Positions 1-60,168 of a stretch of DNA of 64,000 bases are shown piece by piece (position 1 is the stretch's first letter; every line of letters starts with the position of its first letter). This DNA comes from Minisyncoccota bacterium (GTDB lineage Bacteria > Patescibacteriota > Minisyncoccia > Phycocordibacterales > UBA9973). A program made the position numbers and the translations under genes. Under the pieces are notes generated by a model. The model did not search any database. It worked only from the letters and a program-made list of their open reading frames with translations, and was not told the origin of the DNA. The stretch lies in contig JBAZVG010000001.1 of the NCBI GenBank assembly GCA_041661005.1, positions 671,515-735,514 of the forward strand. The letters run 5' to 3'.

Positions 1-2492
1 ACGCACGCCAATTTTTGAATCAAATGCCCAAACCAGATGTAGATGAAATTACTGGTCTTTCTCCAGCGATTTCGATTGATCAAAAATCTCGTTCGAACAA
101 TCCGCGTTCGACAGTGGCTACAATTACTGAAATTTATGATTACCTTCGAGTTATGTATGCGCGCATCGGACATCCGCATTGTCCAAAATGTGGAGAAGAA
201 ATTAAAAAACTTTCGAACGAAGAAATTTTAAATTTTGTTTTAGAAAAGATAGATGTTTTGAGTAAAAATTCAAAGAACAACAAAAAAATTATGGGAGTGG
301 AGTGGAATGAGATGCAAATTAATATTTTCTCCCCAATAGTGCGTGGACGGAAAGGGGAATATTATCAATTACTTTATGATTTGCTTGGAAAAGGTTTTTC
401 TGAAATTCGTCTCGATGGGGTGATGAAGAAGCTCCGTGAACAAATAACTCTTTCAAAAAATAAAGCTCACAAAATTGATATTTTAGTCGATAATTTTGCC
501 ATACACGAGTTTAAAGATAATAAAGAAAATAGTCGAATGCGTCTTTCTGAAGCGATTGAACGTGCGTTGATTGAATCTGATGGTCTTGTGACGATTTCTT
601 TTGGTAATCCGGAGCAGAAACATACTTTTTCGAATGGTCTGGCCGGGGGAGGGACCCGGGGAACCGAGGACCTGAGTAAAAAGAATGTTTCTACGGAGGA
701 GGAATTTATTATGTCCGCGAAATTTGCTTGCAAAAATGATGGTTTCTCTTTCCCTGAAGTTGAACCTCGATTATTCTCCTTCAATTCTCCGTATGGCGCA
801 TGTTCGGCCTGCAACGGTCTCGGCTCAAAATATTTTATGGGATCGGAACCTTGTGATGTTTGTCATGGTGCGCGACTTCGTCCTGAAGCCTTGAATGTTT
901 TTTTAACTGCTTCAAAAAAGAAAGTTAATATTTTAGATCTCTCTTCTTTGTCAATTGCTGATGCGCATGATTTTTTTAAAAATTTAAAACTTTCAGAACA
1001 GGAAAAAGAAATATCTGTGCCAGTGGTGCGTGAAATTGAAGCTCGACTTCAATTTATGTTAGATGTTGGCCTCGATTATCTACAGCTTTCTCGCAAGGCC
1101 AACACGCTTTCAGGCGGTGAAGCTCAACGCATTCGACTTGCTTCTCAGCTTGGTTCGCGTCTTGTTGGTGCGCTTTATGTTTTAGATGAACCTACAATCG
1201 GTCTGCATCAACGCGACAACGATCGGCTGATAACAACATTGCAAAATTTGCGGGATTTGGGCAATACTATTTTGATTGTAGAACACGATGAAGACACTAT
1301 TTACGCCTCGGATTATATTGTAGATATTGGACCAAAAGCTGGGGTGCATGGTGGAGAAGTCATTGTGTCTGGATATCTAGAAGAGTTATTAACTGCCAAC
1401 CTCGTAGGAAAAAATACTAAGTCTAGGACCCTTGGCTACCTAAGAGGTGAATTAAAAATAGAAGTTCCCAAGAAGCGACGCGATTCAAAAGGACAGTTGC
1501 GTATCGCCGGAGGAAAAATTTTCAACATAAATAATTTAAATGTTGAAGTTCCCCTCGGTGTGATGACTTCTATTACTGGAGTGTCTGGTTCCGGAAAAAG
1601 TTCTTTTATGTATGAGATTCTTTATAAAAATCTTCAGGCTCGATATGAACGCAAATATCGTTCAGCGCAGGTGTTTAATTGTTCTTCATTTTCGGGTACT
1701 GAATATCTCTCTCGCGTAATTTTGATCGACCAGTCTCCAATCGGCAGAACTCCACGTTCAAATTTGGCGACTTACACAGGTGCGTTTACCCACATTCGAG
1801 ATCTTTTTGCCACGACGGAAGAAGCACGATTGCGTGGCTGGAAAGCAAACCGGTTTTCTTTTAATGTGAAAGGTGGTCGCTGTGAAGCTTGCGAGGGAAA
1901 CGGTGAATTGGCTGTCGAGATGCATTTTTTGCCAACAGTTTATGTGACTTGCGATGTCTGTAATGGAAAACGTTTCGACAAAGAAACTTTAACGGTAAAA
2001 TACAAAAAGAAAAATATTTATGAAGTTCTGCACATGACTGTCGAAAATGGACTTGTCTTTTTTAAAGATATTCCAGCTATTTCTGATAGATTGCAAACTC
2101 TCCTCGATGTGGGGCTTGGCTACCTAGAGCTTGGCCAGAGCGCGACAACGCTCTCTGGAGGAGAGGCGCAACGGGTAAAGATATCTAGCGAGCTTTACCG
2201 TCCACACACAGAAAAAACAATCTATCTTTTAGACGAGCCGACGGTCGGACTTCATTATGACGATGTACAGAAACTTCTAGAAGTTTTAAATAAACTTGTG
2301 GTAAAAGGCAACACCGTTGTTCTCATAGAGCACAACCTTGATATTATAAAAAGCTCGGATTACATTATAGACATAGGTCCCGAAGGGGGAGTAAATGGAG
2401 GTAATTTGGTGGCCAAAGGCACCCCAGAAGAAGTGGCCAATAATTTAAAGAGTTATACGGGAAAGTATTTAAAGAAAGCTCTACGCAAATGA
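1..2492 (+). CDS. uvrA: Excinuclease ABC subunit A (UvrA), 5'-truncated by window edge
   Basis: The frame is open to position 1, so the true start lies upstream and the TTG at 15 is an ORF-caller artefact. Two ABC ATPase domains are present (Walker A 'GVSGSGKSS', signature 'LSGGEAQR' twice) with the UvrA zinc-finger cysteines. Collinear with the UvrA 'GLSPAISIDQKS...' region. Confidence 0.95.
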   Translation, partial: ARQFLNQMPKPDVDEITGLSPAISIDQKSRSNNPRSTVATITEIYDYLRVMYARIGHPHCPKCGEEIKKLSNEEILNFVLEKIDVLSKNSKNNKKIMGVEWNEMQINIFSPIVRGRKGEYYQLLYDLLGKGFSEIRLDGVMKKLREQITLSKNKAHKIDILVDNFAIHEFKDNKENSRMRLSEAIERALIESDGLVTISFGNPEQKHTFSNGLAGGGTRGTEDLSKKNVSTEEEFIMSAKFACKNDGFSFPEVEPRLFSFNSPYGACSACNGLGSKYFMGSEPCDVCHGARLRPEALNVFLTASKKKVNILDLSSLSIADAHDFFKNLKLSEQEKEISVPVVREIEARLQFMLDVGLDYLQLSRKANTLSGGEAQRIRLASQLGSRLVGALYVLDEPTIGLHQRDNDRLITTLQNLRDLGNTILIVEHDEDTIYASDYIVDIGPKAGVHGGEVIVSGYLEELLTANLVGKNTKSRTLGYLRGELKIEVPKKRRDSKGQLRIAGGKIFNINNLNVEVPLGVMTSITGVSGSGKSSFMYEILYKNLQARYERKYRSAQVFNCSSFSGTEYLSRVILIDQSPIGRTPRSNLATYTGAFTHIRDLFATTEEARLRGWKANRFSFNVKGGRCEACEGNGELAVEMHFLPTVYVTCDVCNGKRFDKETLTVKYKKKNIYEVLHMTVENGLVFFKDIPAISDRLQTLLDVGLGYLELGQSATTLSGGEAQRVKISSELYRPHTEKTIYLLDEPTVGLHYDDVQKLLEVLNKLVVKGNTVVLIEHNLDIIKSSDYIIDIGPEGGVNGGNLVAKGTPEEVANNLKSYTGKYLKKALRK
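636..678 (+). repeat. GC-rich in-frame insert in uvrA, homologous to the loop of the uvrA-uvrC intergenic hairpin (reverse orientation)
   Basis: 'ggtctggccgggggagggacccggggaaccgaggacctgag' aligns with the reverse complement of 2529-2570 ('ggtctggctggggcgcggggccccagagaaccgaggacctg'). It encodes 'GLAGGGTRGTEDL', which is absent from canonical UvrA at this point. Confidence 0.7.
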
Positions 2493-2499
2493 TAGTTTC

Positions 2500-2582
2500 G
2501 CCAGCAGAAGCATTTATTCAGGTCCTCGGTTCTCTGGGGCCCCGCGCCCCAGCCAGACCGTTCATAAATGCTTCTGCTGGCT
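2500..2582. repeat. Long hairpin element: 18-bp perfect inverted repeat (gccagcagaagcatttat / ataaatgcttctgctggc) around a 47-nt GC-rich core
   Basis: Perfect arms at 2500-2517 and 2565-2582. The core contains 'ggggcccc' and the family-1 motif. It lies between the uvrA stop (2492) and the likely uvrC start (2595); the ORF-caller ATG at 2568 sits inside the right arm. Confidence 0.8.
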
Positions 2583-2594
2583 TCACATAAATAT

Positions 2595-3968
2595 ATGAAA
2601 ATTGAATCTTTTAAAAAATCAAGATTGCCTGACAAACCAGGTGTTTATTTCTTTAAGAATAAGAAGAGTATTTTATATATCGGAAAGGCGACTTCCTTGC
2701 GGGATAGAGTAAAAAGTTATTTTGGCAAAGACCTGATTGAAACAAGGGGTCCAATACTTGTGGATATGGTTTTTAATGCGGCAAAAATTGACTGGCAAGT
2801 TACTGATAGTGTGCTTGAAGCCATAATCCTTGAAGCGAATCTAATAAAAAAATATCAGCCGAAATATAATACAAAAGAAAAATCTGACAAAAGTTTTAAT
2901 TATGTTTGCATTACAAGAGAACCTTTACCCAAGGTGGTTATCGTGCGGGGTAAAAACCTCGCCCCTTTCCATTTTTCGTCCCTGCGCCCTTCCCTTGAGT
3001 ACAAGGGCGGGACCCTCGGGAAGCTCAAAATAGAAAGGGGCTCGGTTTCATTTACTAGCATATTTGGTCCTTATACTAGCGGTTCTCAACTTCGTGAGGC
3101 GATGAAAATTATCCGCAGAATTTTCCCCTTTTTAGATGATAAAAGTAAAAATTATATGGAGTTTTATAGGCAGATAAATTTAGTGCCTGATTTGGATGAC
3201 CTGCCTCGACTAGGCAAGGCGGGTCGAAAAATGTATTTACAAAATATTAGAAATATAAAATTGTTTTTTGAGGGTAAAAAGAAAAAAGTTTTGCAAAATT
3301 TACAGAAAGAAATGAAAGAATATGCGCAAAAGCATGAATTCGAAAAAGCGGGTGAAGTGAAAAGACAAATTTTTGCTTTGCAACATATTAATGATATAGC
3401 TCTTTTAAGGAACGGAGAGCAGTATGTTCTCAAGGGAACCCTTGGTAGGAGTGGCGACGACGGACAGAGAAAATTTCCAGCAGGAAATTTTCGTGGTGAG
3501 TCTGAGAATATGCTGCTAGAAGTTTTTAAGATAGAAGCCTATGACATCGCCCACATGGGGGGCAAAAATATGGTGGGGGTGATGACTGTTGTTGAAGATG
3601 GGGAAGTAAACAAAAGCGAATACAAAAAATTCAAAATAAAAACTCAAATTAATGCGAATGACACAGGAGCGCTCAAAGAGGTTTTAGAGAGACGTTTGAG
3701 ACACACAGAATGGCCTTTTCCATCTTTAATCGTTGTCGATGGGGGAGTTGCCCAGTTAAATGTGGTAAAAACCGTCTTAAATAAAATAAGTGTAAATATT
3801 CCAGTGGTATCAGTGGTAAAGGATGAAAAACATAACCCAAAAAGTATCATGGGTAATGAAGAATTTATTTCTAAATATAAATCATCTATTTTACTTGCAA
3901 ACAATGAAGCGCACAGGTTTGCCATTGCTTACCATAAAAACATGCGCAATAAAAATTTCTTAAAATGA
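2595..3968 (+). CDS. uvrC: UvrC-like excinuclease subunit (GIY-YIG nuclease, short form lacking C-terminal HhH)
   Basis: N-terminus 'MKIESFKKSRLPDKPGVYFF...ILYIGKATSLRDRVKSYF' is a GIY-YIG motif. The start was refined to the ATG at 2595, outside the hairpin. It contains two GC-rich in-frame inserts (2941-3050 and 3439-3502). Confidence 0.85.
   Translation: MKIESFKKSRLPDKPGVYFFKNKKSILYIGKATSLRDRVKSYFGKDLIETRGPILVDMVFNAAKIDWQVTDSVLEAIILEANLIKKYQPKYNTKEKSDKSFNYVCITREPLPKVVIVRGKNLAPFHFSSLRPSLEYKGGTLGKLKIERGSVSFTSIFGPYTSGSQLREAMKIIRRIFPFLDDKSKNYMEFYRQINLVPDLDDLPRLGKAGRKMYLQNIRNIKLFFEGKKKKVLQNLQKEMKEYAQKHEFEKAGEVKRQIFALQHINDIALLRNGEQYVLKGTLGRSGDDGQRKFPAGNFRGESENMLLEVFKIEAYDIAHMGGKNMVGVMTVVEDGEVNKSEYKKFKIKTQINANDTGALKEVLERRLRHTEWPFPSLIVVDGGVAQLNVVKTVLNKISVNIPVVSVVKDEKHNPKSIMGNEEFISKYKSSILLANNEAHRFAIAYHKNMRNKNFLK
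3439..3502 (+). repeat. Family-2 64-nt element, in-frame within uvrC (copy 1)
   Basis: 62/64 nt identical to 47214-47277 in rnhA. It contains the hairpin 'gaaaattt-ccagcagg-aaattttc' and encodes 'LGRSGDDGQRKFPAGNFRGES'. Confidence 0.9.
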
Positions 3969-5972: not shown

Positions 5973-6935
5973 TTATTTCTGACAGTTTGGACAAAAGATA
6001 GTTGTACGAGTTTGAATGATCGTCTTTTCTAATGGTTTGCCACAGTTGGTGCACATTTTTCCAGCCTTTCCATATACTTTATGTTCTCTCGCATAATTGC
6101 CACGAGTCTCATCGAGCAGGCGATATGTGGCTACCGAAGAACCACCCAATTTTATTGCTCTTTTCATGATGCGGATTATTGCTTTATGTAATTTTTTTGC
6201 TTCTGTATTAGAGATAGAAGATGAACTTCGGTCTGGTCGGATTCTTGATTCAAACAGGCTTTCGTCTGCATAAATATTTCCTAAGCCTGTAACTATTTTC
6301 TGATCCATCAATACTGCTTTTATTTTACCTTTTTTGTTTTTCAGCGCGTCAAAAAAATATTTAGATGTAAACTTTTTTGATAGTGGTTCTAATCCATAAT
6401 TGCCGAAATGATTTTCCATCTCAAAGTCTTTAATGCTCGGATAATACAATAAGTAGCCAAACATACGAGTATCATTGTAATAAAGTGTTCCATGATTTAG
6501 TTTAAATGTTATATGAGTATGTTTATTTGGAAGTTGTTTTTCAGAAAGTTCTATCGGGTGCCCGCCTGCAACAGCTATGCTGTAAGCATTGCGGGCAGGC
6601 CCGCCAATTATTTTTTCTTCAGTTTTGCTCCGCCTTGCCGTAGCTTTGTGCGAAGGCAGGTATACGAATTGCCCAGACATTTTTAAATGTGCCAGAATAA
6701 TTTTCCCGTGGCTTAATTTAAAAATCAGATTTTTTGCCCGACGTTCGACACTAATAAATTTTTCTCCGGCAACCCCTTGGATAAATTTATTTTTCTGTTT
6801 TAAAGAAGCTATGCGCAGAGTTCCCTTGCCGGAAACGAGTTTTGGTTTTTTTATTTCTACTCGGCGAATTTTCTGACTTACAATAGTGCGGCTCAGTCCT
6901 TGACGTAGATTTTCCACTTCTGGTAATTCCGGCAT
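5973..6935 (-). CDS. mutM: Formamidopyrimidine-DNA glycosylase (Fpg/MutM) with ~25-aa in-frame insertion
   Basis: 'MPELPEVE' N-terminus and C-terminal zinc finger 'CTNCGKPL...CPNCQ'. The insertion 'ATARRSKTEEKIIGGPARNAYSIAVAGGHPIELSEKQ' precedes the conserved 'KHTHITF' and coincides with GC-rich DNA at 6555-6672. Confidence 0.9.
   Translation of the reverse strand: MPELPEVENLRQGLSRTIVSQKIRRVEIKKPKLVSGKGTLRIASLKQKNKFIQGVAGEKFISVERRAKNLIFKLSHGKIILAHLKMSGQFVYLPSHKATARRSKTEEKIIGGPARNAYSIAVAGGHPIELSEKQLPNKHTHITFKLNHGTLYYNDTRMFGYLLYYPSIKDFEMENHFGNYGLEPLSKKFTSKYFFDALKNKKGKIKAVLMDQKIVTGLGNIYADESLFESRIRPDRSSSSISNTEAKKLHKAIIRIMKRAIKLGGSSVATYRLLDETRGNYAREHKVYGKAGKMCTNCGKPLEKTIIQTRTTIFCPNCQK
6561..6599. 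repeat. Family-3 GC-rich palindromic element inside mutM CDS
   Basis: 'cccgcctgcaacagctatgctgtaagcattgcgggcagg' against copA 19317-19356 'ccccgcctgcatcagctgtgctgaaagcactgcgggcagg'. Nested hairpins cctgc/gcagg and acagc/gctgt. Confidence 0.85.
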
Positions 6936-7600: not shown

Positions 7601-7855
7601 ATGCCAATAACACAGTCAGCTAAAAAAGCAATCAGAGGTTCCTTGCGTAAAAAGGCTTTTAATGACAGCCGTAAGCGCGCGATGAAGGAGATAATCAAGA
7701 AAATCGAGAAAATTGCTAAGACAGACAAGAAAGAGGCGCTTAAAATGCTATCTTCGGCTTTTGCTATCATAGACAAAGCAGCTCAAAAGAACGTTATCAA
7801 GAAAAACAATGCTGCTCGCAAGAAGGCTCGTTTATCAAGATTAACCAAAAGCTAG
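7601..7855 (+). CDS. rpsT: 30S ribosomal protein S20
   Basis: 'MPITQSAKKAIRGSLRKKAFNDSRKRAMKE...'. The start was refined to the ATG at 7601, with a -10-like 'tattatat' upstream. Confidence 0.9.
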   Translation: MPITQSAKKAIRGSLRKKAFNDSRKRAMKEIIKKIEKIAKTDKKEALKMLSSAFAIIDKAAQKNVIKKNNAARKKARLSRLTKS

Positions 7856-7870
7856 ACATTTTATTTTTTA

Positions 7871-7934
7871 GGGTACAGATTTTTTGAAGCTTAAAAAATC
7901 CTGAAGTTCTCGGCTCGCCAGCCTCGAAACCCCC
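7871..7934 (+). repeat. Intergenic repeat family, copy A (two-hairpin element)
   Basis: 'gggtacagattttttgaagcttaaaaaatcctgaagttctcggctcgccagcctcgaaacccc' is about 95% identical to 45211-45276 and matches the reverse complement of 49226-49289. Confidence 0.9.
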
Positions 7935-7964
7935 TAAAAAACAAAATCTCCAGCTTTTTAAAAC

Positions 7965-17275: not shown

Positions 17276-19578
17276 AATTTTTTACTTTTAATTCTTAATG
17301 AATTCGACACTACGGATACTGAAGACATAGCCATCGCGAATCCAGCAAAGACGGGGGAGAGGAGCCAGCCAAAGATCGGATAAAACAGTCCGGCTGCCAG
17401 TGGGATACCTACTATATTGTAAATGAATGCCCAGAAAAGATTTTGCTTTATTCCTCGCATGGTTATTTTTGAAAGCCTGATTGCTTTAACAAGCTTGGAG
17501 ATGTCTCCTCCAAGCAGGGTAATGCCAGCTGATTCTATTGCCACGTCTGTGCCAGTGCCCATGGCGATGCCCACATCAGCTTGCGCTAGCGCTGGGGCGT
17601 CGTTGACGCCATCGCCAGCCATCGCCACAATGTGCCCCTCTTTTTGCAGCTTTTCTATCTCTGATAATTTATCTGCGGGTAATACGTGCGCTATGACATC
17701 ATCAATGCCGACGAGCGACGCCATGTATTTTGCGGCCTTTTCGTCGTCTCCGGTAAGCATGATTACTTTGATGCCGAGCTTGTGGAGATCTTTCACGGCC
17801 TGCATTGACTCAGTTTTTATTTCATCTGCCACCATCACAAATCCCAAAACTTTTTCTGCTGTAGCAAGAATCACAGGAGTTTTTCCCTGCATTGTGTATT
17901 GTTCTAGTTTTGAATTATCGAAATCTAATTTCAGATCTTGTATCAGTTTTGCATTTCCAACAAAATATTCAACACTACCGACTGAGCCTTTTATCCCCCT
18001 GCCTTGCAAATTTTCAAAATTTTGCACCTCTAAAAGTTTTATATTTTTTCCTGCCCCGTAGGAAGTACTCTTTCCTTCGGGGTCTTGTGCATAACTCACA
18101 ACAGCGTGAGCGATAGGATGTTCAGATTTTTTTTCAAGTGATGCAAGGATTGACAAGAATTCTACATCTTTTAAAATTGAAAAATTTTTTATATCAACCA
18201 GTGTTGGTTTCCCGATAGTTATTGTTCCAGTTTTATCGACGATGACAGTGTCAACTTTGTGAAGTTTTTCTAATGTTGCGGCGTCTTTTATCAAGATTCC
18301 TTCTTTGGCGCCTTTCCCAACTCCAACAATAATGGCAGTGGGGGTGGCGAGTCCGAGCGCGCATGGACAAGCAATAACCAAGATACCGACAAAAGAAATT
18401 AGACCGAAAGAAAGCGCTTGTGAGAAACCGAGATATTGTGTGCCGATGAGGAGCCATGTGCCAAGAGTGACAAAAGAAATTATAAGCACAATAGGCACGA
18501 AGATGCTTGAAATCTTATCAGCTAGGGCTTGAATCGGTGCCTTACTTCCCTGTGCTTCTTCAACCATTTTTATAATATGCGCAAGCAATGTCTCTTTCCC
18601 GACTTTTGTCGCCTTGAATGTGAATGATCCAGTCGTGTTTATCGTCGCAGCTATTACGTCGTCTCCGACTTTTTTTTGAGCGGGCATCGGTTCGCCAGTC
18701 ACCATAGATTCGTCTATGAAAGAAGTTCCTTCTGTGATTATTCCATCAACTGGAATCTTGGTTCCAGGTTTTACAATTATCAGATCGCCATGCACAACTT
18801 GTTCGACAGGTATCTCAATTTCTTTACCACTGCGAATTACCAAAGCGGTTTTTGCTTGCAGATTTAAAAGTTTCTCAATAGCATCACCCGTTTTTATTTT
18901 TGATCGAGCTTCCAAATATTTTCCCAGCGCGATAAATGTAATGACGATGATAGTCACATCATAATAAGTGCTGTTTGTATTTATAAAAGGTTTGAGTATA
19001 TCCTCAAATGCCGAGACTGCAAAGCTGTATAGATATGCTGTCAGTGTGCCTATGCCGATGAGGGTATCCATATTTGCTTTTCCATGACGCAGAAAGCGAT
19101 AAAAACCCAAAAGATATGGTTTGCCGACAACAAAAAGTATGTATGTGGCGAATAGGGGAAGGAGGTGATGGAAAAATTCTTCAATCGTGAAACCCATCTC
19201 TGGAACTATGTTGTAGCCGGATAAAATTTCCCAACCCATTACGAATATGCTGATTACAGCTAGTGGAATAGCCGAAATTACTTTTGTTCGCATAGCTTTA
19301 ATCTCTGCCAGTTTTTCCCCGCCTGCATCAGCTGTGCTGAAAGCACTGCGGGCAGGTTTTTTAGATTGGTCAATGACGAGAGAATAACCCAATGGCTCTA
19401 TTTTTTGAGATAATTTTTCTGGGTTTGTTTTTGTTTCGTCGAAATTAATTTTTACAGACTCATTGCCATAATTTGCTTCCGCCATGTTAACCCCGTCGAT
19501 TTTTTTGAAAGTTCTCTCAATAATGCCTGCGCAAGAAGCACAATGCATGCCTTTTATTTTATATGTTTCTTTTTTCAT
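17272..19578 (-). CDS. copA: Copper-translocating P1B-type ATPase
   Basis: N-terminal HMA 'GMHCASCAG', 'CPC' in '[11 protein letters not shown]', 'DKTGTIT', '[10 protein letters not shown]'. Confidence 0.95.
19317..19356. repeat. Family-3 GC-rich palindromic element inside copA CDS
   Basis: See 6561-6599. It encodes '[15 protein letters not shown]' in the linker after the HMA domain. Confidence 0.85.
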
Positions 19579-21192: not shown

Positions 21193-21365
21193 AATTTTAG
21201 TGGATTGAAACTATTTTTTGAAACTTGTTGCAGGTGTAGTTTTAGATAGACATTGCACAGGCTGACGAGCCGAGCATAGCAAATTTTCAGCAGAAAATTA
21301 TGTCGTGTCTAGATAAAACTATACCAAGAAAGAGTTTCAAAAGAAAATAGTTTCAATAATAAATT

Positions 21366-44849: not shown

Positions 44850-45186
44850 TTTTTTTTGCGTTCTCACTTAGATTTTTTTCATCACCCGAAACTTCTGGCC
44901 ATACCCAAATGTGCGCGTGAGATATTTCCTCACCATAAACTTGAGAACGTATAATATCTGCATTAAATGCTTTTTTTTGAGCCAATGCTATTTTTTTAGC
45001 GATTTCAAAATATTCTCCAATATTTGGCACATCCCAAACCCATCGGTAATGCCTTTTTGGTATTATCTGGGTATGGCCCGGACTCATCGGCTTTATATCT
45101 AAAAAAGCCAGGAAATTTTCATCCTCGTAGACTATGTTAGCAGGTATTTCTTTTTTTACTATTTTACAAAAAATGCAATTTTCCAT
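44833..45186 (-). CDS. HIT-family (histidine triad) hydrolase
   Basis: 'MENCIFCKIV...' with histidine triad 'HAHIWVWP'. The start was refined to the ATG at 45186; the longer ORF-caller N-terminus reads through repeat copy B. Confidence 0.8.
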   Translation of the reverse strand: MENCIFCKIVKKEIPANIVYEDENFLAFLDIKPMSPGHTQIIPKRHYRWVWDVPNIGEYFEIAKKIALAQKKAFNADIIRSQVYGEEISHAHIWVWPEVSGDEKNLSENAKKIIQAL

Positions 45187-45210
45187 GGAAAGTTTTTTAA
45201 ATATAATTTT

Positions 45211-45276
45211 TTCCGGTACGGATTTTTTGAAGCTTAAAAAATCCTGAAATTCTCGGCTCGCCAGCCTCGAAACCCC
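45211..45276 (+). repeat. Intergenic repeat family, copy B
   Basis: 'ccggtacggattttttgaagcttaaaaaatcctgaaattctcggctcgccagcctcgaaacccc'. Confidence 0.9.
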
Positions 45277-45389
45277 TTCAAAAATCATATTTCAAAAAAC
45301 TTTATCTATTATATGCTAAAACAATTTCTAATGGAAATTGTTCGCACGAACATTCGCAGGGCGAATGTTTTAGTGCTAAAATTCCATTT

Positions 45390-47098: not shown

Positions 47099-47716
47099 AT
47101 GAAACAAAATAAAATAGTTATTTATACAGATGGGGCGGCAAAGGGGAATCCAGGAAGGGCAGGTTGGGGCGCGGTTTTTATAATTTACGGAGGTCAGAAT
47201 ACTCACGAGCGAGCCCTTGGTAGGAGTGGCGACGACGGACAGAGAAAATTTTCAGCAGAAAATTTTCGTGGTGAGTCCGTGGGTATTCTGACCGAAGTAA
47301 TTGAAATTGGCGGAGGAGTAGAACATGCGACAAATAATCAGATGGAATTAACTGCTCCGATAGAGGCGCTGAAATATTTTAAGCAAATAATAAATACACA
47401 GGCAACGCCTGTGTATGATATCGAAATTATTTCTGATTCTAAGTATGTGATCTTGGGAATTACGGAGTGGATTTTTAATTGGCAGAAAAATAATTGGCGC
47501 AATGCTGCCAAAAAGCCAGTTGTAAATCGTGAACTCTGGGAGGAACTTTATGAACTTACCCAAGAATTGAAACCCAAATGGACATATGTCAAAGGACACA
47601 ATGAGGATAAATACAACGACCGTGCGGATCTTATAGCTACAAGTTTTGCGGAAGGCGAGCCGGTGGAGCTTAATCCCGGTAGTAGAGCAAAGCTCACTAC
47701 GGGACAAGGAAAATAA
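47099..47716 (+). CDS. rnhA: Ribonuclease HI with ~25-aa in-frame repeat-encoded insertion
   Basis: 'IYTDGAAKGNPGRAGWG...TNNQMEL...' catalytic motifs. The insertion 'LGRSGDDGQRKFSAENFRGESVGIL' sits between beta strands relative to E. coli RNase HI. Confidence 0.85.
   Translation: MKQNKIVIYTDGAAKGNPGRAGWGAVFIIYGGQNTHERALGRSGDDGQRKFSAENFRGESVGILTEVIEIGGGVEHATNNQMELTAPIEALKYFKQIINTQATPVYDIEIISDSKYVILGITEWIFNWQKNNWRNAAKKPVVNRELWEELYELTQELKPKWTYVKGHNEDKYNDRADLIATSFAEGEPVELNPGSRAKLTTGQGK
47214..47277 (+). repeat. Family-2 64-nt element, in-frame within rnhA (copy 2)
   Basis: 62/64 identical to 3439-3502, in the same orientation and the same codon phase. Confidence 0.9.
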
Positions 47717-47734
47717 AATACTTTTTATTATTCT

Positions 47735-49216
47735 ATGCGAGATAGAATTTTTTATGCAATATGTTTTGGTTTTATTTTTGGAGTATTTTTACGCTCTTTT
47801 TTCTTCATAAATTTTTATTTCGTACTGTTTCTTGCTTTCTTGGCAAGTGTCTTAATTATCTACTTTAGTTTAGTAAAGTTTGAATGGGGAATAATCGCCG
47901 GAATTTTTCTGTTAGTGTTTTCACTTGGAATTTTTAGATTTCAGGTGGTTGATGTTTTAGCACCTAATATTTTTGAGTCTCAAGTTGATAAAAAAATTTC
48001 TTTATCGGGAATTGTTGTAGATGAGCCGGATATTAGGGAAAATAATCAAAAATTAACTATTGAAACGAAATCGGACGCTCTGAAAACGAAAATTTTAGTT
48101 ACTGTGAATTTTGGTCAGGATTTTAAATATGGAGATGAGATAAAATTTTCTGGAAAATTAGAGAAACCGGAGAATTTTACGACTGATCAGGGTAAAAACT
48201 TTGACTACATAAATTATTTGCGAAAAGATGGCATTCATTACGTAATGAATTACGTAACTGCTGAAATTATTTTACGAGGGAATGGTAATTTTATCAAAAA
48301 TACCCTGTTTTCTATTAAAGAAAAGTTTTTAGAAAAAATGAATTTGGCGATACATGGTTCCGAATCGCTCTTGATGGGTGGGCTTATTTTAGGGGAGAAG
48401 GCTTCTTTTAGCCAAGAATTAAGAAAGAATTTTATTGATACAGGCACGATACACATAGTGGCTCTCTCTGGCTACAACATTACTATAATTGCCGAATGGA
48501 TTATGAAGTTATTTGCTTTTTTACCTAAAAATCTTGGCATAGGGGTGGGTATTTTCGCAATTTTACTTTTTATATTAATGACTGGCGGAAGTTCTACAGC
48601 AATACGAGCAGGGATAATGGCTACACTTGCGCTTATTGCCCGCGCGACAGGTAGGAATTACGATGTCGCGCGGGCGCTCCTTCTCGCTGGTGTGGGAATG
48701 ATTTTATTAAATCCATTTGTATTGGCGTATGATGTTTCTTTTCAGCTTTCTTTTATCGCCACAGTTGCTGTTATTTTCTTGGCGCCGAAGATTGAGAAAT
48801 ATTTTTTATGGGTGCCGGATATTTTTAAATTGCGGGACATTGTATCCGTTACTTGCGCCGCGTATATCTTCGTTTTACCATTCATCCTCTACAAAATGGG
48901 AAATTTATCTCTGGTTGCCTTACCGGCGAATGTTTTAATTTTACCTTTTATTTCTTTTACCATGGCGCTCGGTTTTCTGACTGGCTTTGTTGGACTTATT
49001 TCACACATGCTGGCAGTGCCGTTTGGGTTTATTTCATATTTATTCTTGCATTATGAACTTGGTGTGATTGATTTTTTCTCTAGTCTTCCATTTGCTTCTT
49101 TTTCTATTCCAAATTTTCCTCTCATTTTGACAATCTTAATTTATATCTATTTTATTTATAGACTTTTTGGCAGAAACATAAAAAGTTTTTTTATTGAATT
49201 TAAAAATCAAGAGTAA
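47735..49216 (+). CDS. comEC: ComEC/Rec2 competence (DNA internalisation) membrane domain, encoded separately from its MBL domain
   Basis: 493 aa, polytopic, with a competence-domain pattern. No metallo-beta-lactamase domain is present within this ORF. Confidence 0.7.
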   Translation: MRDRIFYAICFGFIFGVFLRSFFFINFYFVLFLAFLASVLIIYFSLVKFEWGIIAGIFLLVFSLGIFRFQVVDVLAPNIFESQVDKKISLSGIVVDEPDIRENNQKLTIETKSDALKTKILVTVNFGQDFKYGDEIKFSGKLEKPENFTTDQGKNFDYINYLRKDGIHYVMNYVTAEIILRGNGNFIKNTLFSIKEKFLEKMNLAIHGSESLLMGGLILGEKASFSQELRKNFIDTGTIHIVALSGYNITIIAEWIMKLFAFLPKNLGIGVGIFAILLFILMTGGSSTAIRAGIMATLALIARATGRNYDVARALLLAGVGMILLNPFVLAYDVSFQLSFIATVAVIFLAPKIEKYFLWVPDIFKLRDIVSVTCAAYIFVLPFILYKMGNLSLVALPANVLILPFISFTMALGFLTGFVGLISHMLAVPFGFISYLFLHYELGVIDFFSSLPFASFSIPNFPLILTILIYIYFIYRLFGRNIKSFFIEFKNQE

Positions 49217-49225
49217 TGTTTTTAA

Positions 49226-49289
49226 GGGGTTTTGAGCGCGACGGCGCGAAAATTTCAGGATTTTTTAAGCTTCAAAAAATCCGTACCGG
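49226..49289 (-). repeat. Intergenic repeat family, copy C (inverted orientation)
   Basis: 'ggggttttgagcgcgacggcgcgaaaatttcaggattttttaagcttcaaaaaatccgtaccgg' is the reverse complement of copies A/B. The GC hairpin ggct-cgcc-agcc is replaced by cgcg-acgg-cgcg, a compensatory change. Confidence 0.85.
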
Positions 49290-49310
49290 CAAAAATATTA
49301 CTCTTGATTT

Positions 49311-49910
49311 TTATTTTGCTTCAATAAAATTCTTTTCAATTACCTCCCAATTTAAGTTTTCAAAAAATGCCTCTACATATTTTTTCTTTTCTGAAGTAGG
49401 GTAGTCGTAAACGAAAGCATGTTCCCACATATCCAGCGCAAGAATTATCTTACAAGTGGCAAGTTGTCCCAAATGCTGTTCGTCTACCCATGCATTTAAA
49501 AGACGTTTGGTTTGAGGATCATAGTAGAGCATAGCCCAGCCTATGCCACGGGTAAGAGCTGTAGATTTAAAACGATTAAGCCACACGTCAAAAGAATTCC
49601 ATTCGGCAACGATAGCTTGTTTTAATTTACTATCATCCGCGAGAGTGTGAGCTCCACCAGAAAGAGATTCAAAATAAATCTCATGATTTCGCATGCCATT
49701 GTATTCAAATCCGAATCTGCGCTGGATTTCGCTTACGACGTAGGGCGCAAAAGCATCCTCTTTCGCATAACCCTCGTATTCAGGAATTTTTTCCAGAATA
49801 AGATTCGTATTTTTCACATAACCCGCATAGAGCTTTAGATGCTCTTCAATGTTTTTAGCTGATATTCCTTTCAATGTTCCGATATTAAATTTTATTTCTT
49901 CAAATTTCAT
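49311..49910 (-). CDS. sodA: Superoxide dismutase, Fe/Mn family
   Basis: '...HHxxHH...' motifs and the C-terminal 'DMWEHAFVYDY' motif. Confidence 0.9.
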   Translation of the reverse strand: MKFEEIKFNIGTLKGISAKNIEEHLKLYAGYVKNTNLILEKIPEYEGYAKEDAFAPYVVSEIQRRFGFEYNGMRNHEIYFESLSGGAHTLADDSKLKQAIVAEWNSFDVWLNRFKSTALTRGIGWAMLYYDPQTKRLLNAWVDEQHLGQLATCKIILALDMWEHAFVYDYPTSEKKKYVEAFFENLNWEVIEKNFIEAK

Positions 49911-57918: not shown

Positions 57919-58324
57919 AAAACTTAAAGAGGGAGCGAAGTTGCCGAAGTATCATCATCCGGGAGATGTGGGGATGGATCTGTATTCGATGGAGACGGTG
58001 ACGGTAAAGCCGGGCGAGCATTATCGTTTTTGGCATGGTTTTGCGCTGGAATTTCCCGAAGGGTATGGGGCTATTATTATGGATAAAGGGAGTATTTCCA
58101 AAGCTGGCTTTGTCCACATGGGCGGGGTGTATGATCCAGGATACAGAGGTGAATACAACACACTTTTAGTAAATTTGTCTGATAAAGCGTATACTTTCGA
58201 GGAAGGTGATAAAGTTTCTCAGCTTGTGATCGTGCCTGTCGTTATCGCAAAGTTAAAAGAGGTTGATAAGTTGAATGAATCTGCGCGTGGTGAAGGAAGG
58301 TTTGGAAGCACAGGTAAAAAATAG
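57902..58324 (+). CDS. dut: dUTP diphosphatase
   Basis: 'GDVGMDLYS' and 'GVYDPGYRGE' motifs. Confidence 0.9.
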   Translation: MQIKVKKLKEGAKLPKYHHPGDVGMDLYSMETVTVKPGEHYRFWHGFALEFPEGYGAIIMDKGSISKAGFVHMGGVYDPGYRGEYNTLLVNLSDKAYTFEEGDKVSQLVIVPVVIAKLKEVDKLNESARGEGRFGSTGKK

Positions 58325-58325
58325 T

Positions 58326-58417
58326 GCGAAGTTTTTGTAAAATTTCTTGAAACTGCGCCCTCGAGGTCATAAGGACAGGGAACCCACACGTTTCTTAAAA
58401 TTTTGCAAAAACTTCGC
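58326..58417. repeat. Long hairpin element: ~28-bp AT-rich inverted repeat around a 36-nt GC-rich core, between dut and argS
   Basis: Left arm 'gcgaagtttttgtaaaatttcttgaaac'; right arm reverse complement 'gcgaagtttttgcaaaattttaagaaac'. The core 'tgcgccctcgaggtcataaggacagggaacccacac' contains the palindrome cctcgagg. Confidence 0.8.
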
Positions 58418-58425
58418 TTGATTAT

Positions 58426-60168
58426 ATGCAGAACAAGATAATAAATTTAATAAAAGACGCACTAAAAAATCTCGATATAGAGGTTAGTGATATTGCGCTG
58501 GAACATCCGGCAGATTTGAAAATGGGGGATTATTCTACAAATGTAGCCATGGCTATCGCCAAAAATGTTAAAAGCAGTCCGAAAGAGTTGGCGGAGAAGA
58601 TAGTTGTTGAGATAGCGAGATTGAATTTAGACAAGAATATAGAAAAAGTGGAAGTGGCCGGAGCGGGTTTCATAAATTTTCATCTATCGCGTAAATTTTT
58701 TGCTAAAAGCGTTGAAGAGATTGTAAACGAGGGGAACGACGTTGGTAAAAATAAAACTCTATCCGGTAAAAAAATAATGATCGAATATACCGACCCGAAC
58801 CCTTTCAAGCCTTTTCACATCGGGCACTTGATGACGAATGCTATAGGTGAATCGGTGGCGAGAATTTTAGAACATTCTGGAGCGGAAATTTCTCGCGCCA
58901 ATTATCAGGGCGACGTGGGGCTTCATGTGGCGAAGGCTATTTGGGGTCTTCAAAAAGATAAAAAACTACAAGACCAGAGTTATTCTAATGTTATACAAGC
59001 GACAAATATTGGCCTTGCGTATGCCGAAGGTAGCCAGGCTTATGAAGATGATCCGAAGGCCAAGTCTGAAATAGATGAAATAAATAAGAAAATTTACAAC
59101 AAGGATGATAAAAAAATAAACGAGATTTATGATTGGGGTTTTAAGGTAACAATGGAGGCTTTCGAAGATTTATATAAAATACTTGGCACCGAATTTAATT
59201 TTTCTTTCTTGGAAAGCCAGATGGCGGAAATTGGGGAGAGAATAGTGAAAGACAATCTTGATAAATTTATAGATTCCCCAAAAAGTAAAATGATTTTTGA
59301 AAAATCTGATGATGCTATCGTTTTCAAAGCTGAAAAGCATGATCCGAAACTTCACACCCGAGTTTTTATCACTAGAGAAGGTTTGCCCACTTATGAGACA
59401 AAGGAATTGGGGCTGACCGAAGAAAAATTTAAGACAGATCCGGATATGGACTTATCTATTGTCATTACCGCGAACGAACAAGCAGAGTATATGAAAGTCG
59501 TCGGGAAAGCCATTTCCCTGATCCACCCAGAACACGAGAAAAAAATGTTCCACATCACCCACGGCATGATGAGGTTTGCAGAAGGGAAAATGGGTTCGAG
59601 AAAAGGCAATGTGATTACCGGAGAGTCGCTCATTCGCGAGACGATAGAACTCATAAAAGAAAAAATGCGCGAGCGTGATTGGGATGAAGAAGAAAAAAGT
59701 AAAATTGCAGAGATGGTGGGTGTGGCATCCATAAAATATTCGATTCTTCGCTCGACTTCTGGCAGTGATATCGTTTTTAACAGAGAAGAATCAATCTCGA
59801 CCGAAGGGGATTCTGGTCCATATCTGCAATATTCCTATGCTCGCGCCAATTCTGTCTTAGAAAAAGCAAAGCTCGAAGATATCTTGCCAGACCCGCATGC
59901 ATATCCTCCTGAGATTTTTGAAGTGGAAAAATTATTATATAAATTCCCAGAAGTTGTCCTGCGTTCTTCTTCCGAATATGAACCACATTACATTGCAAAC
60001 TATTTGATCGAAGTCGCCCGCGCCTTCAATAGTTTTTATGGCAACAATTTGATTGTAGACAAAGCTGACAAAACTTCATCTTACAAAGTCGCTCTGACCT
60101 ACGCCTTCACCTTTGTCATGAAAAAAGGTTTGCATCTGCTTGGAATTAAGGCACCGGGGAAGATGTAA
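58426..60168 (+). CDS. argS: Arginine--tRNA ligase
   Basis: Class I 'HIGH' motif ('FHIGHLMTNAIGES') plus DALR anticodon-binding domain, 580 aa. Confidence 0.95.
   Translation: MQNKIINLIKDALKNLDIEVSDIALEHPADLKMGDYSTNVAMAIAKNVKSSPKELAEKIVVEIARLNLDKNIEKVEVAGAGFINFHLSRKFFAKSVEEIVNEGNDVGKNKTLSGKKIMIEYTDPNPFKPFHIGHLMTNAIGESVARILEHSGAEISRANYQGDVGLHVAKAIWGLQKDKKLQDQSYSNVIQATNIGLAYAEGSQAYEDDPKAKSEIDEINKKIYNKDDKKINEIYDWGFKVTMEAFEDLYKILGTEFNFSFLESQMAEIGERIVKDNLDKFIDSPKSKMIFEKSDDAIVFKAEKHDPKLHTRVFITREGLPTYETKELGLTEEKFKTDPDMDLSIVITANEQAEYMKVVGKAISLIHPEHEKKMFHITHGMMRFAEGKMGSRKGNVITGESLIRETIELIKEKMRERDWDEEEKSKIAEMVGVASIKYSILRSTSGSDIVFNREESISTEGDSGPYLQYSYARANSVLEKAKLEDILPDPHAYPPEIFEVEKLLYKFPEVVLRSSSEYEPHYIANYLIEVARAFNSFYGNNLIVDKADKTSSYKVALTYAFTFVMKKGLHLLGIKAPGKM

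What the first reader, a model, noticed from the sequence alone, without database searches (positions are those of the whole stretch)
3439..3502. Near-identical 64-nt GC-rich palindromic element inserted in-frame in two unrelated housekeeping genes (uvrC and rnhA)
3439-3502 (uvrC) and 47214-47277 (rnhA) are 62/64 nt identical, although the host genes are otherwise unrelated and lie 44 kb apart. Both copies sit in the same orientation and the same codon phase. Each adds about 21-25 aa ('LGRSGDDGQRKF(P/S)A(G/E)NFRGES') to a protein whose orthologues lack that segment; the E. coli RNase HI comparison is the reference. The element carries the hairpin gaaaattt-N8-aaattttc and is much more GC-rich than the flanking coding sequence. 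This behaves like a mobile or recombinationally spread, translation-tolerated mini-insertion, analogous to Rickettsia palindromic elements, which is unusual outside Rickettsiales.
Basis: seen in the sequence. Interest (0 to 1): 0.8.

Follow-up and report, generated by a model that had tools for sequence, protein, structure and literature searches.

The report
In-frame palindromic repeat in CPR genes
The two look-alike segments are copies of a roughly 102-base hairpin-forming repeat found only in ultra-small Patescibacteria (CPR) genomes in these searches, between genes and, read through in frame, inside many housekeeping genes, much like the "selfish DNA" palindromic elements of Rickettsia.

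Summary
Positions 3439-3502 and 47214-47277 match at 62 of 64 bases, and the two differences are a compensatory base-pair swap. The unit is larger than reported: a 102-nt (34-codon) stem-closed hairpin at 3417-3518 in uvrC and 47192-47293 in rnhA.

Public scans gave 134 distinct copies, all of those from named genomes in Patescibacteria MAGs (Nomurabacteria/Paceibacterota). About half are intergenic, mostly abutting a stop codon. The rest lie inside about 20 sites in housekeeping genes.

All 55 sense-oriented genic copies use one hydrophilic frame (LGRSGDDGQRKFSAENFRGES). Nine are antisense in other open frames. No copy was seen to break a gene.

None of the 120 closest RNase HI orthologues has the insert. 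Fifteen of the 120 closest UvrC orthologues have it at the same site. That site is a hot spot that other orthologues fill with different insert families or leave empty.

The element folds as a three-way junction with strong covariation support and no Rfam match. Five related elements lie elsewhere in the window.

Best reading: a mobile, translation-tolerated palindromic repeat that works like a Rickettsia palindromic element. I found no description of it in this phylum. The mobilising mechanism is unknown.

The parts
3417..3518 (+). Copy 1 of the 102-nt element, 34 codons in frame in uvrC (EQYVLKGTLGRSGDDGQRKFPAGNFRGESENMLL)
   Evidence: Covariance model R1 scores 111.6 bits, E=3e-27. RNA fold -43.3 kcal/mol, z=-4.96. 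ORF context.
3417..3440 (+). Copy 1, P1 5' arm (pairs with 3495-3518)
   Evidence: Alignment A4 columns 3-26 paired with 81-104. 23 of 24 pairs show changes on both sides across 54 copies.
3441..3468 (+). Copy 1, conserved G-rich core: J1/2 CUUGGUA, P2 mini-hairpin G-GA-GU-GGCG-AC-GA-C, J2/3 GGACAGA
   Evidence: Near-invariant in 134 copies. The P2 pair Y38-R43 is U-A or C-G in 132 of 134 and G-U in 2, at positions the search pattern left free.
3469..3492 (+). Copy 1, P3: 10-bp AU-rich hairpin with AGCA loop.
   Evidence: 99% of cells paired and 5 pairs with changes on both sides. The two differences between the window copies are one compensatory pair here.
3495..3518 (+). Copy 1, P1 3' arm
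47192..47293 (+). Copy 2 of the 102-nt element, 34 codons in frame in rnhA (GQNTHERALGRSGDDGQRKFSAENFRGESVGILT). Parts: P1 47192-47215 with 47270-47293, core 47216-47243, P3 47244-47267.
   Evidence: R1 scores 115.3 bits, E=3e-28. Fold -50.1 kcal/mol, z=-6.52. The insert is absent from E. coli RNase HI and from the 120 closest orthologues.
2568..3968 (+). Host gene uvrC. The deposited protein P0134 is 457 aa and 100% identical.
47099..47716 (+). Host gene rnhA (RNase HI, PF00075 relatives)
21226..21344 (+). Related three-way-junction element with a different core (GGCU-GACG-AGCC) and the same P3 hairpin. Intergenic, antisense to both neighbouring genes.
   Evidence: R1 scores 41.7 bits, E=1.4e-8. 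Fold z=-8.19. ORFs.
49204..49322 (+). Related element of the D2 repeat family, between convergent genes
   Evidence: R1 scores 33.8 bits. Repeat family D2/D20.
7837..7956 (-). Related element of the D2 repeat family, starting just past the rpsT stop codon
   Evidence: R1 scores 31.8 bits. Fold z=-6.04. Repeat D2.
45180..45299 (-). Related element of the D2 repeat family, upstream of recJ
   Evidence: R1 scores 25.6 bits. Repeat D2 at 87% identity.
58320..58435 (+). Related element with CUUGAAA...GGACAGGGAA junctions, intergenic
   Evidence: R1 scores 24.9 bits, E=4e-4.

Best explanation
This is a non-autonomous, repeated palindromic DNA element of about 102 nt, confined in these searches to Patescibacteria (CPR, class Paceibacteria/Nomurabacteria). 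It is functionally equivalent to Rickettsia palindromic elements.

Shown:
- It is multi-copy within genomes and widespread between them.
- It is present or absent at orthologous sites.
- It occurs in both orientations.
- It sits either at gene ends or inside genes.
- One strand folds into a long hairpin whose tip is a three-way junction: a P1 stem that varies in sequence but stays paired, a conserved G/A-rich P2 module, and an AU-rich P3 hairpin with an AGCA loop.

Inferred:
- It spreads by copying into new sites through a single-stranded intermediate that needs this fold. The enzyme is unknown.
- Selection then keeps only harmless insertions: those past stop codons, and those inside genes that are a multiple of three, free of stops and placed in surface loops or interdomain linkers.
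- Inside genes it is transcribed and translated as part of the host protein. The strongly favoured frame is the most hydrophilic one (LGRSGDDGQRKFSAENFRGES), which forms a disordered excursion.
- Permissive sites such as the UvrC linker and the RNase HI beta2-beta3 turn become hot spots. There, different element families replace one another, cores are lost leaving stem remnants, and cores may flip by recombination between the inverted arms.
For: Copies and range:
- 28 loci in GTDB genomes, all Patescibacteria MAGs, with 8 in MAG ELA362.
Together these give 134 distinct copies.

Mobility:
- rnhA insert in 0 of 120 orthologues.
- uvrD site a is filled in L059, L131, L119, L146, L132 and L016, and empty in L032, L125, L009 and L052.
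- CORE1 is scattered over a UvrC tree built without the insert. Sister sequences carry other families or none.
- A second element is nested in the P3 loop of the L006 copy.
- Near-identical full-length intergenic copies occur within one MAG (L005, L025, L013).

Translation-tolerated:
- 55 of 55 sense genic copies are in one phase. Nine antisense copies are in the two other open antisense frames. None is in a frame with stops.
- The consensus is exactly 102 nt. The favoured frame has GRAVY -1.10, against -0.23 to -0.51 for the other three open frames.
- Hosts include uvrB, uvrC, uvrD, recG, polA, rnhA, fmt, rsmA, dus, tsaD, cca, tgt, metK and PGM.
- Intergenic copies never split a gene.
- In the AlphaFold model of RNase HI, the insert (residues about 32-62) lies between beta2 and beta3, with pLDDT below 50 for most of residues 38-58.

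Structure:
- 86% of cells paired against 64.5% in shuffles. Covariation score 0.557 against 0.175 (0 of 500 shuffles reach it). Slid controls score 0.17 or less.
- The + strand always folds better than the - strand.
- G.T to A.C mismatches in the arms are 261 to 164.
- In orthologous copies the core is 83-96% identical and the flanking gene 64-77%. The arms diverge like the flanks but stay paired.

No Rfam family matches.
Against: - No transposase, terminal inverted repeat consensus or target-site duplication was identified, so mobility is inferred from distribution and not from mechanism.
- The core is better conserved than the host genes around it, and the arms keep pairing through compensatory changes even in orthologous copies. 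Purely selfish, decaying DNA would not be expected to do this. It points to ongoing homogenisation or to selection on the fold.
- Recurrence of many families at exactly the same sites could mean targeting rather than mere tolerance.
- Translation of the insert is inferred from reading-frame statistics. No transcript or peptide data were available.
- The UvrC tree is a poorly resolved neighbour-joining tree.
- Copies were ascertained with exact patterns, so conservation of core positions 33-56 is partly built in by the search.
Confidence: 0.75

Rival explanations
1. It is a functional structured RNA or single-stranded DNA module, not merely selfish DNA. On this reading the three-way junction with tandem G.A motifs is a binding site for a dedicated protein. 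It would act as a terminator or stabiliser at gene ends, or as a regulatory or processing site within mRNAs, and is kept by the host for that reason.
For: - Strong covariation, plus conservation of junction nucleotides that the search pattern did not constrain (CUUGG, GU, AGCA loop).
- The core is more conserved than the flanking coding sequence in orthologous copies, and the arms are maintained by compensatory changes.
- Intergenic copies sit right at stop codons.
- Several sequence-distinct families share the same architecture.
Against: - The favoured strand is the sense strand in most genic copies but the antisense strand of the adjacent gene in most intergenic copies. The G.T over A.C excess appears in all three classes. 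No single host-transcript role fits all copies.
- Presence is patchy among close orthologues.
- A long stable hairpin inside essential open reading frames is hard to rationalise as beneficial.
Confidence: 0.15
2. It is removed before or during decoding, as a mini-intron, a translational bypass ('byp'-like) element or an intein-like segment. On this reading the host proteins do not contain the peptide.
For: - It is a GC-rich hairpin insert in AT-rich genes, which superficially resembles mitochondrial byp elements and small introns.
- It has strong RNA structure on the sense strand.
Against: - Removal would free the element from frame constraints. Yet 55 of 55 sense copies share one open phase, the length is 102 nt, and no genic copy uses a frame with stops.
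- Antisense genic copies are also kept open.
- No group I or II intron, ribozyme or other Rfam family matches.
- 34 aa is far too short for an intein.
Confidence: 0.04
3. It is an ancestral or convergently acquired protein segment, a lineage-specific loop with a protein-level role. On this reading the nucleotide similarity simply follows from the shared peptide.
For: - The same peptide occurs at the same UvrC site in 15 orthologues, and at the same Fmt site in 11 loci.
Against: - About half of all copies are intergenic, and some genic copies are antisense and encode unrelated peptides.
- Nucleotide conservation, including synonymous positions, exceeds that of the host gene.
- The insert is absent from all 120 closest RNase HI orthologues.
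- It is predicted disordered.
- At least 17 unrelated host protein families carry it.
Confidence: 0.03

Closest known systems
Rickettsia palindromic elements (RPE; Ogata et al. 2000, listed in PMC3184786 as ~105-146 bp)
   Same: - Size of about 100 nt, and it forms a stable hairpin.
- Dispersed multi-copy repeat in a reduced genome.
- Found both between genes and inserted in frame inside housekeeping genes.
- The encoded peptide is hydrophilic and placed where the fold tolerates it.
- No associated transposase is known.
   Different: - Different phylum, and no sequence relationship was shown (not tested).
- It has a strongly conserved, non-palindromic three-way-junction core with covariation support.
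- Many sequence-distinct families compete for the same hot-spot sites.
- Sense and antisense copies occur at the same site.
MITE-like and intergenic palindromic repeats that fuse with ORFs (enterobacterial ERIC/RU-1, RU-2, RU-3; pneumococcal BOX/RUP/SPRITE; Neisseria Correia elements) as reviewed in PMC3184786 and PMC2759123
   Same: - Small non-autonomous palindromic repeats.
- Frequent at the 3' ends of genes, where they look like terminators.
- Occasionally fused in frame with, or inserted into, protein genes.
   Different: - No conserved terminal inverted repeat plus target-site duplication, and no parent insertion sequence was found.
- The fraction inside essential genes, about half of the recovered copies, is far higher.
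- The outer arms vary freely in sequence while the centre is conserved, which is the reverse of a typical MITE.
REP/REPIN elements mobilised by RAYT (Y1/HUH) transposases, and IS200/IS605 hairpin ends
   Same: - Function depends on a hairpin in one DNA strand.
- No terminal inverted repeats or target duplications.
- A strand-specific signature: excess of G.T over A.C mismatches.
- A GTAGGAG-like motif is present in many copies.
   Different: - REPs are about 20-40 nt and extragenic.
- The GTAG motif is not conserved here (many copies have GGGAGGAG).
- No Y1 transposase was seen in 1.05 Mb of flanking loci. This is a weak test that used query sequences recalled from memory.
GC-rich palindromic clusters and translational-bypass 'byp' elements of yeast mitochondria (recalled from memory, not checked here)
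   Same: - GC-rich hairpin elements invade AT-rich protein-coding genes of a reduced genome.
   Different: - Byp elements interrupt the frame and are skipped by the ribosome. These elements keep the frame open and appear to be translated.

Membership tests
Rickettsia palindromic elements (RPE) | Dispersed repeat of roughly 100-150 bp with a predicted stable hairpin | tested here: met
   102 nt; 134 distinct copies; folds z=-5 to -6.5
Rickettsia palindromic elements (RPE) | In-frame insertion into pre-existing ORFs at sites compatible with the protein fold | tested here: met
   55 of 55 sense copies are open in one phase. The RNase HI insert is at the beta2-beta3 turn with low pLDDT. The UvrC insert is in the interdomain linker.
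Rickettsia palindromic elements (RPE) | Sequence homology to the RPE-1 to RPE-8 consensus, and occurrence in Rickettsia | not tested
   No RPE consensus sequence was available in the tools. All hits in the named genome collection are Patescibacteria, so membership by descent is unlikely. The resemblance is in how it works.
MITE | Conserved terminal inverted repeats shared by all copies | tested here: not met
   The arms are complementary within each copy, but their sequence differs between copies. The centre is the conserved part.
MITE | Direct target-site duplication | tested here: inconclusive
   No direct duplication is visible at filled versus empty uvrD, rnhA and uvrC sites. Instead, complementarity extends into the flanks, and both window copies are flanked by ACGGA...GAAGT. 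The orthologues are too diverged to fix exact junctions.
MITE | A related autonomous insertion sequence with matching ends | tested here: inconclusive
   None was seen in 1.05 Mb of loci. Whole genomes were not searched.
REP/REPIN-RAYT | Short (20-40 nt) extragenic palindrome with a conserved 5' GTAG, and a linked RAYT gene | tested here: not met
   The element is 102 nt. Half of the copies are intragenic. GTAG is replaced by GGAG in many copies. There was no Y1 transposase hit.
Self-splicing introns, ribozymes and any Rfam family | A match to a curated covariance model | tested here: not met
   The only hit at gathering threshold in the window is a tRNA. Nothing overlaps the element at E<=1 in three element-bearing loci.
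Translational bypass (byp / T4 gene 60 type) | The element interrupts the reading frame or carries stops and must be skipped | tested here: not met
   All genic copies keep an open frame, and the length is a multiple of 3.

The most novel reading that the evidence does not exclude
The element and its sister families in the same genome could form a previously undescribed superfamily of structured three-way-junction elements. On this reading they are propagated by an unknown single-strand-specific machinery that targets hairpins or specific hot spots in housekeeping genes. That would explain four things: different families recur at exactly the same sites, cores are swapped within persistent stems, one element is nested in another's loop, and the fold is maintained by compensatory change over long divergence. 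This would be a new kind of mobile element, or a host-maintained nucleic-acid module, and not simply decaying selfish DNA.
Probability: 0.25. Interest if true: 0.85.

Novelty: new variant of a known kind. Interest (0 to 1): 0.65.

Why it matters
- CPR bacteria have some of the smallest and most streamlined genomes known. Even so, essential repair, replication and RNA-modification genes (uvrB, uvrC, uvrD, recG, polA, rnhA, fmt, rsmA, tsaD, metK and others) are repeatedly invaded by small structured repeats that are read through as protein.
- It explains many lineage-specific "inserts" in CPR proteins.
- It warns annotators and structural modellers that these segments are not functional domains.
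- It identifies repeats that may break or mis-join metagenome assemblies. One possible mis-join was seen.
- It provides a well-defined structured motif, with a covariance model, whose mobilising enzyme is still unknown.

Tried and rejected
- Rfam at gathering threshold on the window, and at E<=1 on three loci. Nothing matched the element.
- Peptide search of the 5.8-billion-protein library with concatenated frames. The second returned only 13 proteins because of the word index. It was useful only for showing sequence variants and DUF4430 and UvrD hosts.
- Hammerhead, hairpin, HDV-like, K-turn and integron attC readings of the core were considered by eye and dropped. The defining motifs (CUGANGA/GAAA; RYYYAAC/GTTRRRY; a 3-nt bulge next to the G.A pairs) are absent.
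- DGR template/variable repeat was rejected. The differences are not adenine-specific, and copies lie in dozens of unrelated genes.
- Split-gene check. Intergenic copies flanked closely on both sides turned out to lie between different genes (dnaB/recR, rpsI/grpE, lepA and others), not inside one gene.
- tblastn with IS200 and IS608 TnpA sequences recalled from memory, against all loci. No credible hit.
- Scan of viral contigs with the degenerate core pattern. No matches.
- Two literature searches pairing CPR/Patescibacteria terms with palindromic, in-frame, MITE or RPE terms found no description of these elements; a third, general search for in-frame palindromic repeats also turned up nothing on this phylum.
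- My first structure string for pair counting was out of register and gave meaningless numbers. The corrected run is.
Full report
**1. Observation**

The two segments are real. Positions 3439-3502 and 47214-47277 align without gaps at 62 of 64 identical positions. A 38-nt piece of the core occurs exactly twice in the window and in none of 100 shuffles.

Both lie on the + strand inside long ORFs. One is uvrC (2568-3968, identical to the deposited protein P0134 of a Candidatus Paceibacterota MAG). The other is rnhA (47099-47716). Both are in the same codon phase.

The 64-mer is 51.6% G+C, and its first 31 nt are 64.5%. The flanking coding sequence is 32-38% and the window average is 38.8%.

The only two differences between the copies are the two sides of one base pair in the inner hairpin, C-G versus U-A.

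**2. True extent**

Each core is enclosed by a long outer stem. The stem sequence differs between the two copies but remains complementary.

The stem-closed unit is 102 nt, which is 34 codons: 3417-3518 in uvrC and 47192-47293 in rnhA. Removing the 34 codons from rnhA restores a beta2-beta3 hairpin of the same length as in E. coli RNase HI and in the closest orthologues.

Both copies are also flanked by ACGGA on the 5' side and GAAGT on the 3' side. I could not tell whether this is part of the element or a target preference.

**3. Distribution**

- An exact 20-mer from the core found 28 loci among GTDB species representatives. All are Patescibacteria MAGs (Nomurabacteria, Paceibacterota, and some labelled Saccharibacteria). 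One MAG has 8 copies.
It found none in viral contigs.
- After removing duplicates there are 134 distinct copies.
- 65 of the 134 pass strict criteria for lying inside a long ORF; the other 69 are mostly intergenic. The intergenic copies nearly always abut the stop codon of a neighbouring gene. More often than not the element's better-folding strand is antisense to that gene.
- Closely flanked intergenic copies lie between different genes and do not split one.

**4. Genic copies**

Host genes were identified by clustering, tblastn and Pfam. They are:
- uvrC (two sites), uvrB, and uvrD/pcrA (two sites);
- recG, polA and rnhA;
- fmt, rsmA/ksgA, dus, tsaD, the CCA-adding enzyme and tgt;
- metK, a phosphoglucomutase-family enzyme, DUF4430 proteins and a lamin-tail-domain protein.

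All 55 sense-oriented copies in credible genes use the same phase and encode (T)LGRS(G/D)(D/G)DGQRKFSAENFRGE(S). Nine are antisense: seven in one open frame and two in the other. None uses a frame that contains stops.

The single sense copy in another phase (L114) lies in an ORF with no Pfam match and is probably intergenic.

The 102-nt consensus is open in four of the six frames. The favoured frame is by far the most hydrophilic, with GRAVY -1.10 and 11 charged residues.

This pattern is what selection on a translated insert would produce. An element removed from the mRNA or skipped by the ribosome would not produce it.

**5.

*RNase HI.* None of the 120 closest homologues (153-182 aa, against 205 aa here) has the insert. 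The alignment places it in a turn of variable length. There, another orthologue (P0019) carries a different insert.

*UvrC.* Fifteen of the 120 closest homologues carry the element at the same position, between the UVR motif and the endonuclease domain (the RIEAYD motif). Twenty-two have a short linker. The remaining sequences that could be scored carry other, unrelated insert families at that very site.

On a neighbour-joining tree built without the segment, the carriers are scattered. They often sit next to sequences with another family or none (the tree is poorly resolved).

*uvrD site a.* It is filled in six loci and empty in four. L019 keeps a short hairpin remnant with the core deleted.

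*Other sites.* uvrD site b, rsmA, tsaD and dus each hold sense copies in some genomes and antisense copies in others.

So the insert is not simply ancestral. These are permissive or targeted hot spots with turnover.

**6. Structure**

On 54 diverse copies I tested a three-helix model:
- P1: 24 pairs, the outer stem.
- P2: the mini-hairpin G-GA-GY-GNCG-RC-GA-C, with tandem G.A positions.
- P3: a 10-bp AU-rich hairpin with an AGCA loop.

Results:
- 86% of cells are paired, against 64.5% in shuffles.
- 29 of 37 pairs show changes on both sides.
- The covariation score is 0.557 against 0.175 (0 of 500 shuffles reach it). Slid controls score 0.17 or less.

The P2 pair at positions the search pattern left free is U-A or C-G in 132 of 134 copies and G-U in the other two. 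This could reflect few independent events.

The + strand always folds better than the - strand. G.T mismatches outnumber A.C mismatches in the arms by 261 to 164. This holds in sense-genic, antisense-genic and intergenic copies alike. That argues the relevant single strand is not simply the host mRNA.

In sets of orthologous copies (fmt, uvrC, metK) the core is 83-96% identical and the flanking gene 64-77%. The arms diverge like the flanks yet stay paired.

No Rfam family matches.

**7. A superfamily in the window**

A covariance model built from the family recovers the two copies at 115 and 112 bits. It also finds five other intergenic elements:
- 21226-21344 on the + strand (41.7 bits);
- 49204-49322 on the + strand (33.8 bits);
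- 7837-7956 on the - strand (31.8 bits);
- 45180-45299 on the - strand (25.6 bits);
- 58320-58435 on the + strand (24.9 bits).

Their cores have different sequences but the same architecture: a long stem, a small GC hairpin with a GNCG loop flanked by GA, and an AU-rich hairpin. E-values from this model are rough.

Other GC-rich palindromic inserts occur in uvrA, at a second site in uvrC, and in fpg.

**8. Protein context**

An AlphaFold model of the 205-aa RNase HI (55-sequence alignment, mean pLDDT 74.8) has a confident RNase H core. The insert (residues about 32-62) lies between strands 19-31 and 63-77, with pLDDT below 50 for most of residues 38-58.

From what is known of UvrC, the UvrC site is the linker before the C-terminal endonuclease domain. 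The polA site lies between the 5'-3' exonuclease and polymerase domains.

**9. Interpretation**

The best-supported account is a non-autonomous palindromic repeat that spreads within and between Patescibacteria genomes. It persists only where it is harmless. It is translated in frame as a disordered hydrophilic loop. This is functionally the same phenomenon as the Rickettsia palindromic elements. It is also related in kind to other small repeats that fuse with ORFs (PMC3184786; PMC2759123).

Membership of the RPE family by descent was not tested and is unlikely.

It differs from a typical MITE. The centre is conserved and the ends are not. I found no direct target duplication and no parent insertion sequence.

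The mobilising mechanism is unknown. Three features fit a single-stranded intermediate of the kind used by HUH/Y1 systems:
- dependence on a hairpin;
- the strand-specific mismatch bias;
- the absence of terminal repeats.

That is inference only.

Three observations go beyond simple decay of selfish DNA and keep a more novel reading open:
- the high conservation of the core;
- the compensatory maintenance of the arms;
- the recurrence of many families at identical sites.

**10. Novelty**

Two searches of the paper library combined CPR, Patescibacteria or Parcubacteria with palindromic-element, in-frame, MITE, RPE or REP terms, and a third searched general in-frame palindromic-repeat terms. None found a description of such elements in this phylum. 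The library does not cover most subscription journals, so this is not proof.

I rate it a new variant of a known kind.

Noticed in passing
window 2927-3052 (+), inside uvrC: uvrC carries a second GC-rich hairpin insert (FHFSSLRPSLEYKGGTLGKLKIERGS) from a different family. The same family fills the UvrC linker hot spot in orthologue P0179 (NFSSLRPSPDYRGGTLGKLKIARSS). In L010/P0196 this second site instead holds a copy of the element studied here.
   Followed up: partly
UvrC orthologues P0134-P0253, linker between NDxALxK and FR-IEAYD: One linker position is occupied by at least eight unrelated insert families (PFFGR 16, FSRSS 10, LRPS-WDPRG 8, LRTA 6, VGILQG 5, PYPASP 2, CORE1b 2, others 30), or by none (22). 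The PYPASP family also occurs in the RNase HI beta2-beta3 turn of P0019.
   Followed up: partly
window 2492-2596 (+), between uvrA and uvrC: A very strong 18-bp-stem palindrome with a GC-rich centre (-51.9 kcal/mol, z=-8.97). It overlaps the first codons of the mechanically listed uvrC ORF. The deposited protein starts 9 codons later.
   Followed up: partly
window about 6548-6600 (in fpg, - strand gene) and about 19305-19355: Two copies of another palindromic motif, CCCGCCTGCAnCAGCTnTGCTGnAAGCAnTGCGGGCAGG. One lies inside the fpg coding sequence.
   Followed up: no
window 600-706 (+), inside uvrA: A GC-rich hairpin insert (…NGLAGGGTRGTEDLSKK…) in uvrA. The fold is only weakly better than shuffles (z=-1.56). 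It is possibly a decayed element.
   Followed up: no
L006 1700-1860 (- strand): A different small element is nested in the loop of the AU-rich hairpin of a copy of this element. It has its own GC-rich core and its own TTTTTCAGCAGAAAAA hairpin.
   Followed up: partly
L135 about 50-1700: A single ORF runs from UvrD (to about residue 470) straight into RsmA (from about residue 131), joined exactly at the element. uvrD and rsmA are neighbours and both can carry the element. This is either a real deletion between two copies or an assembly collapse at the repeat.
   Followed up: no
L019 about 6480-6560 (uvrD site a): The site keeps the outer stem and the first bases of the core (GCAATCTTGCGCTATGGAAGCCTTTGGGAGCAAGATTGC) but lacks the rest. 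It looks like an internal deletion footprint of the element.
   Followed up: partly
window 36134-36295: Two tandem copies of an 81-nt unit at 94% identity, apparently coding (Gly/Asn/Cys-rich).
   Followed up: no
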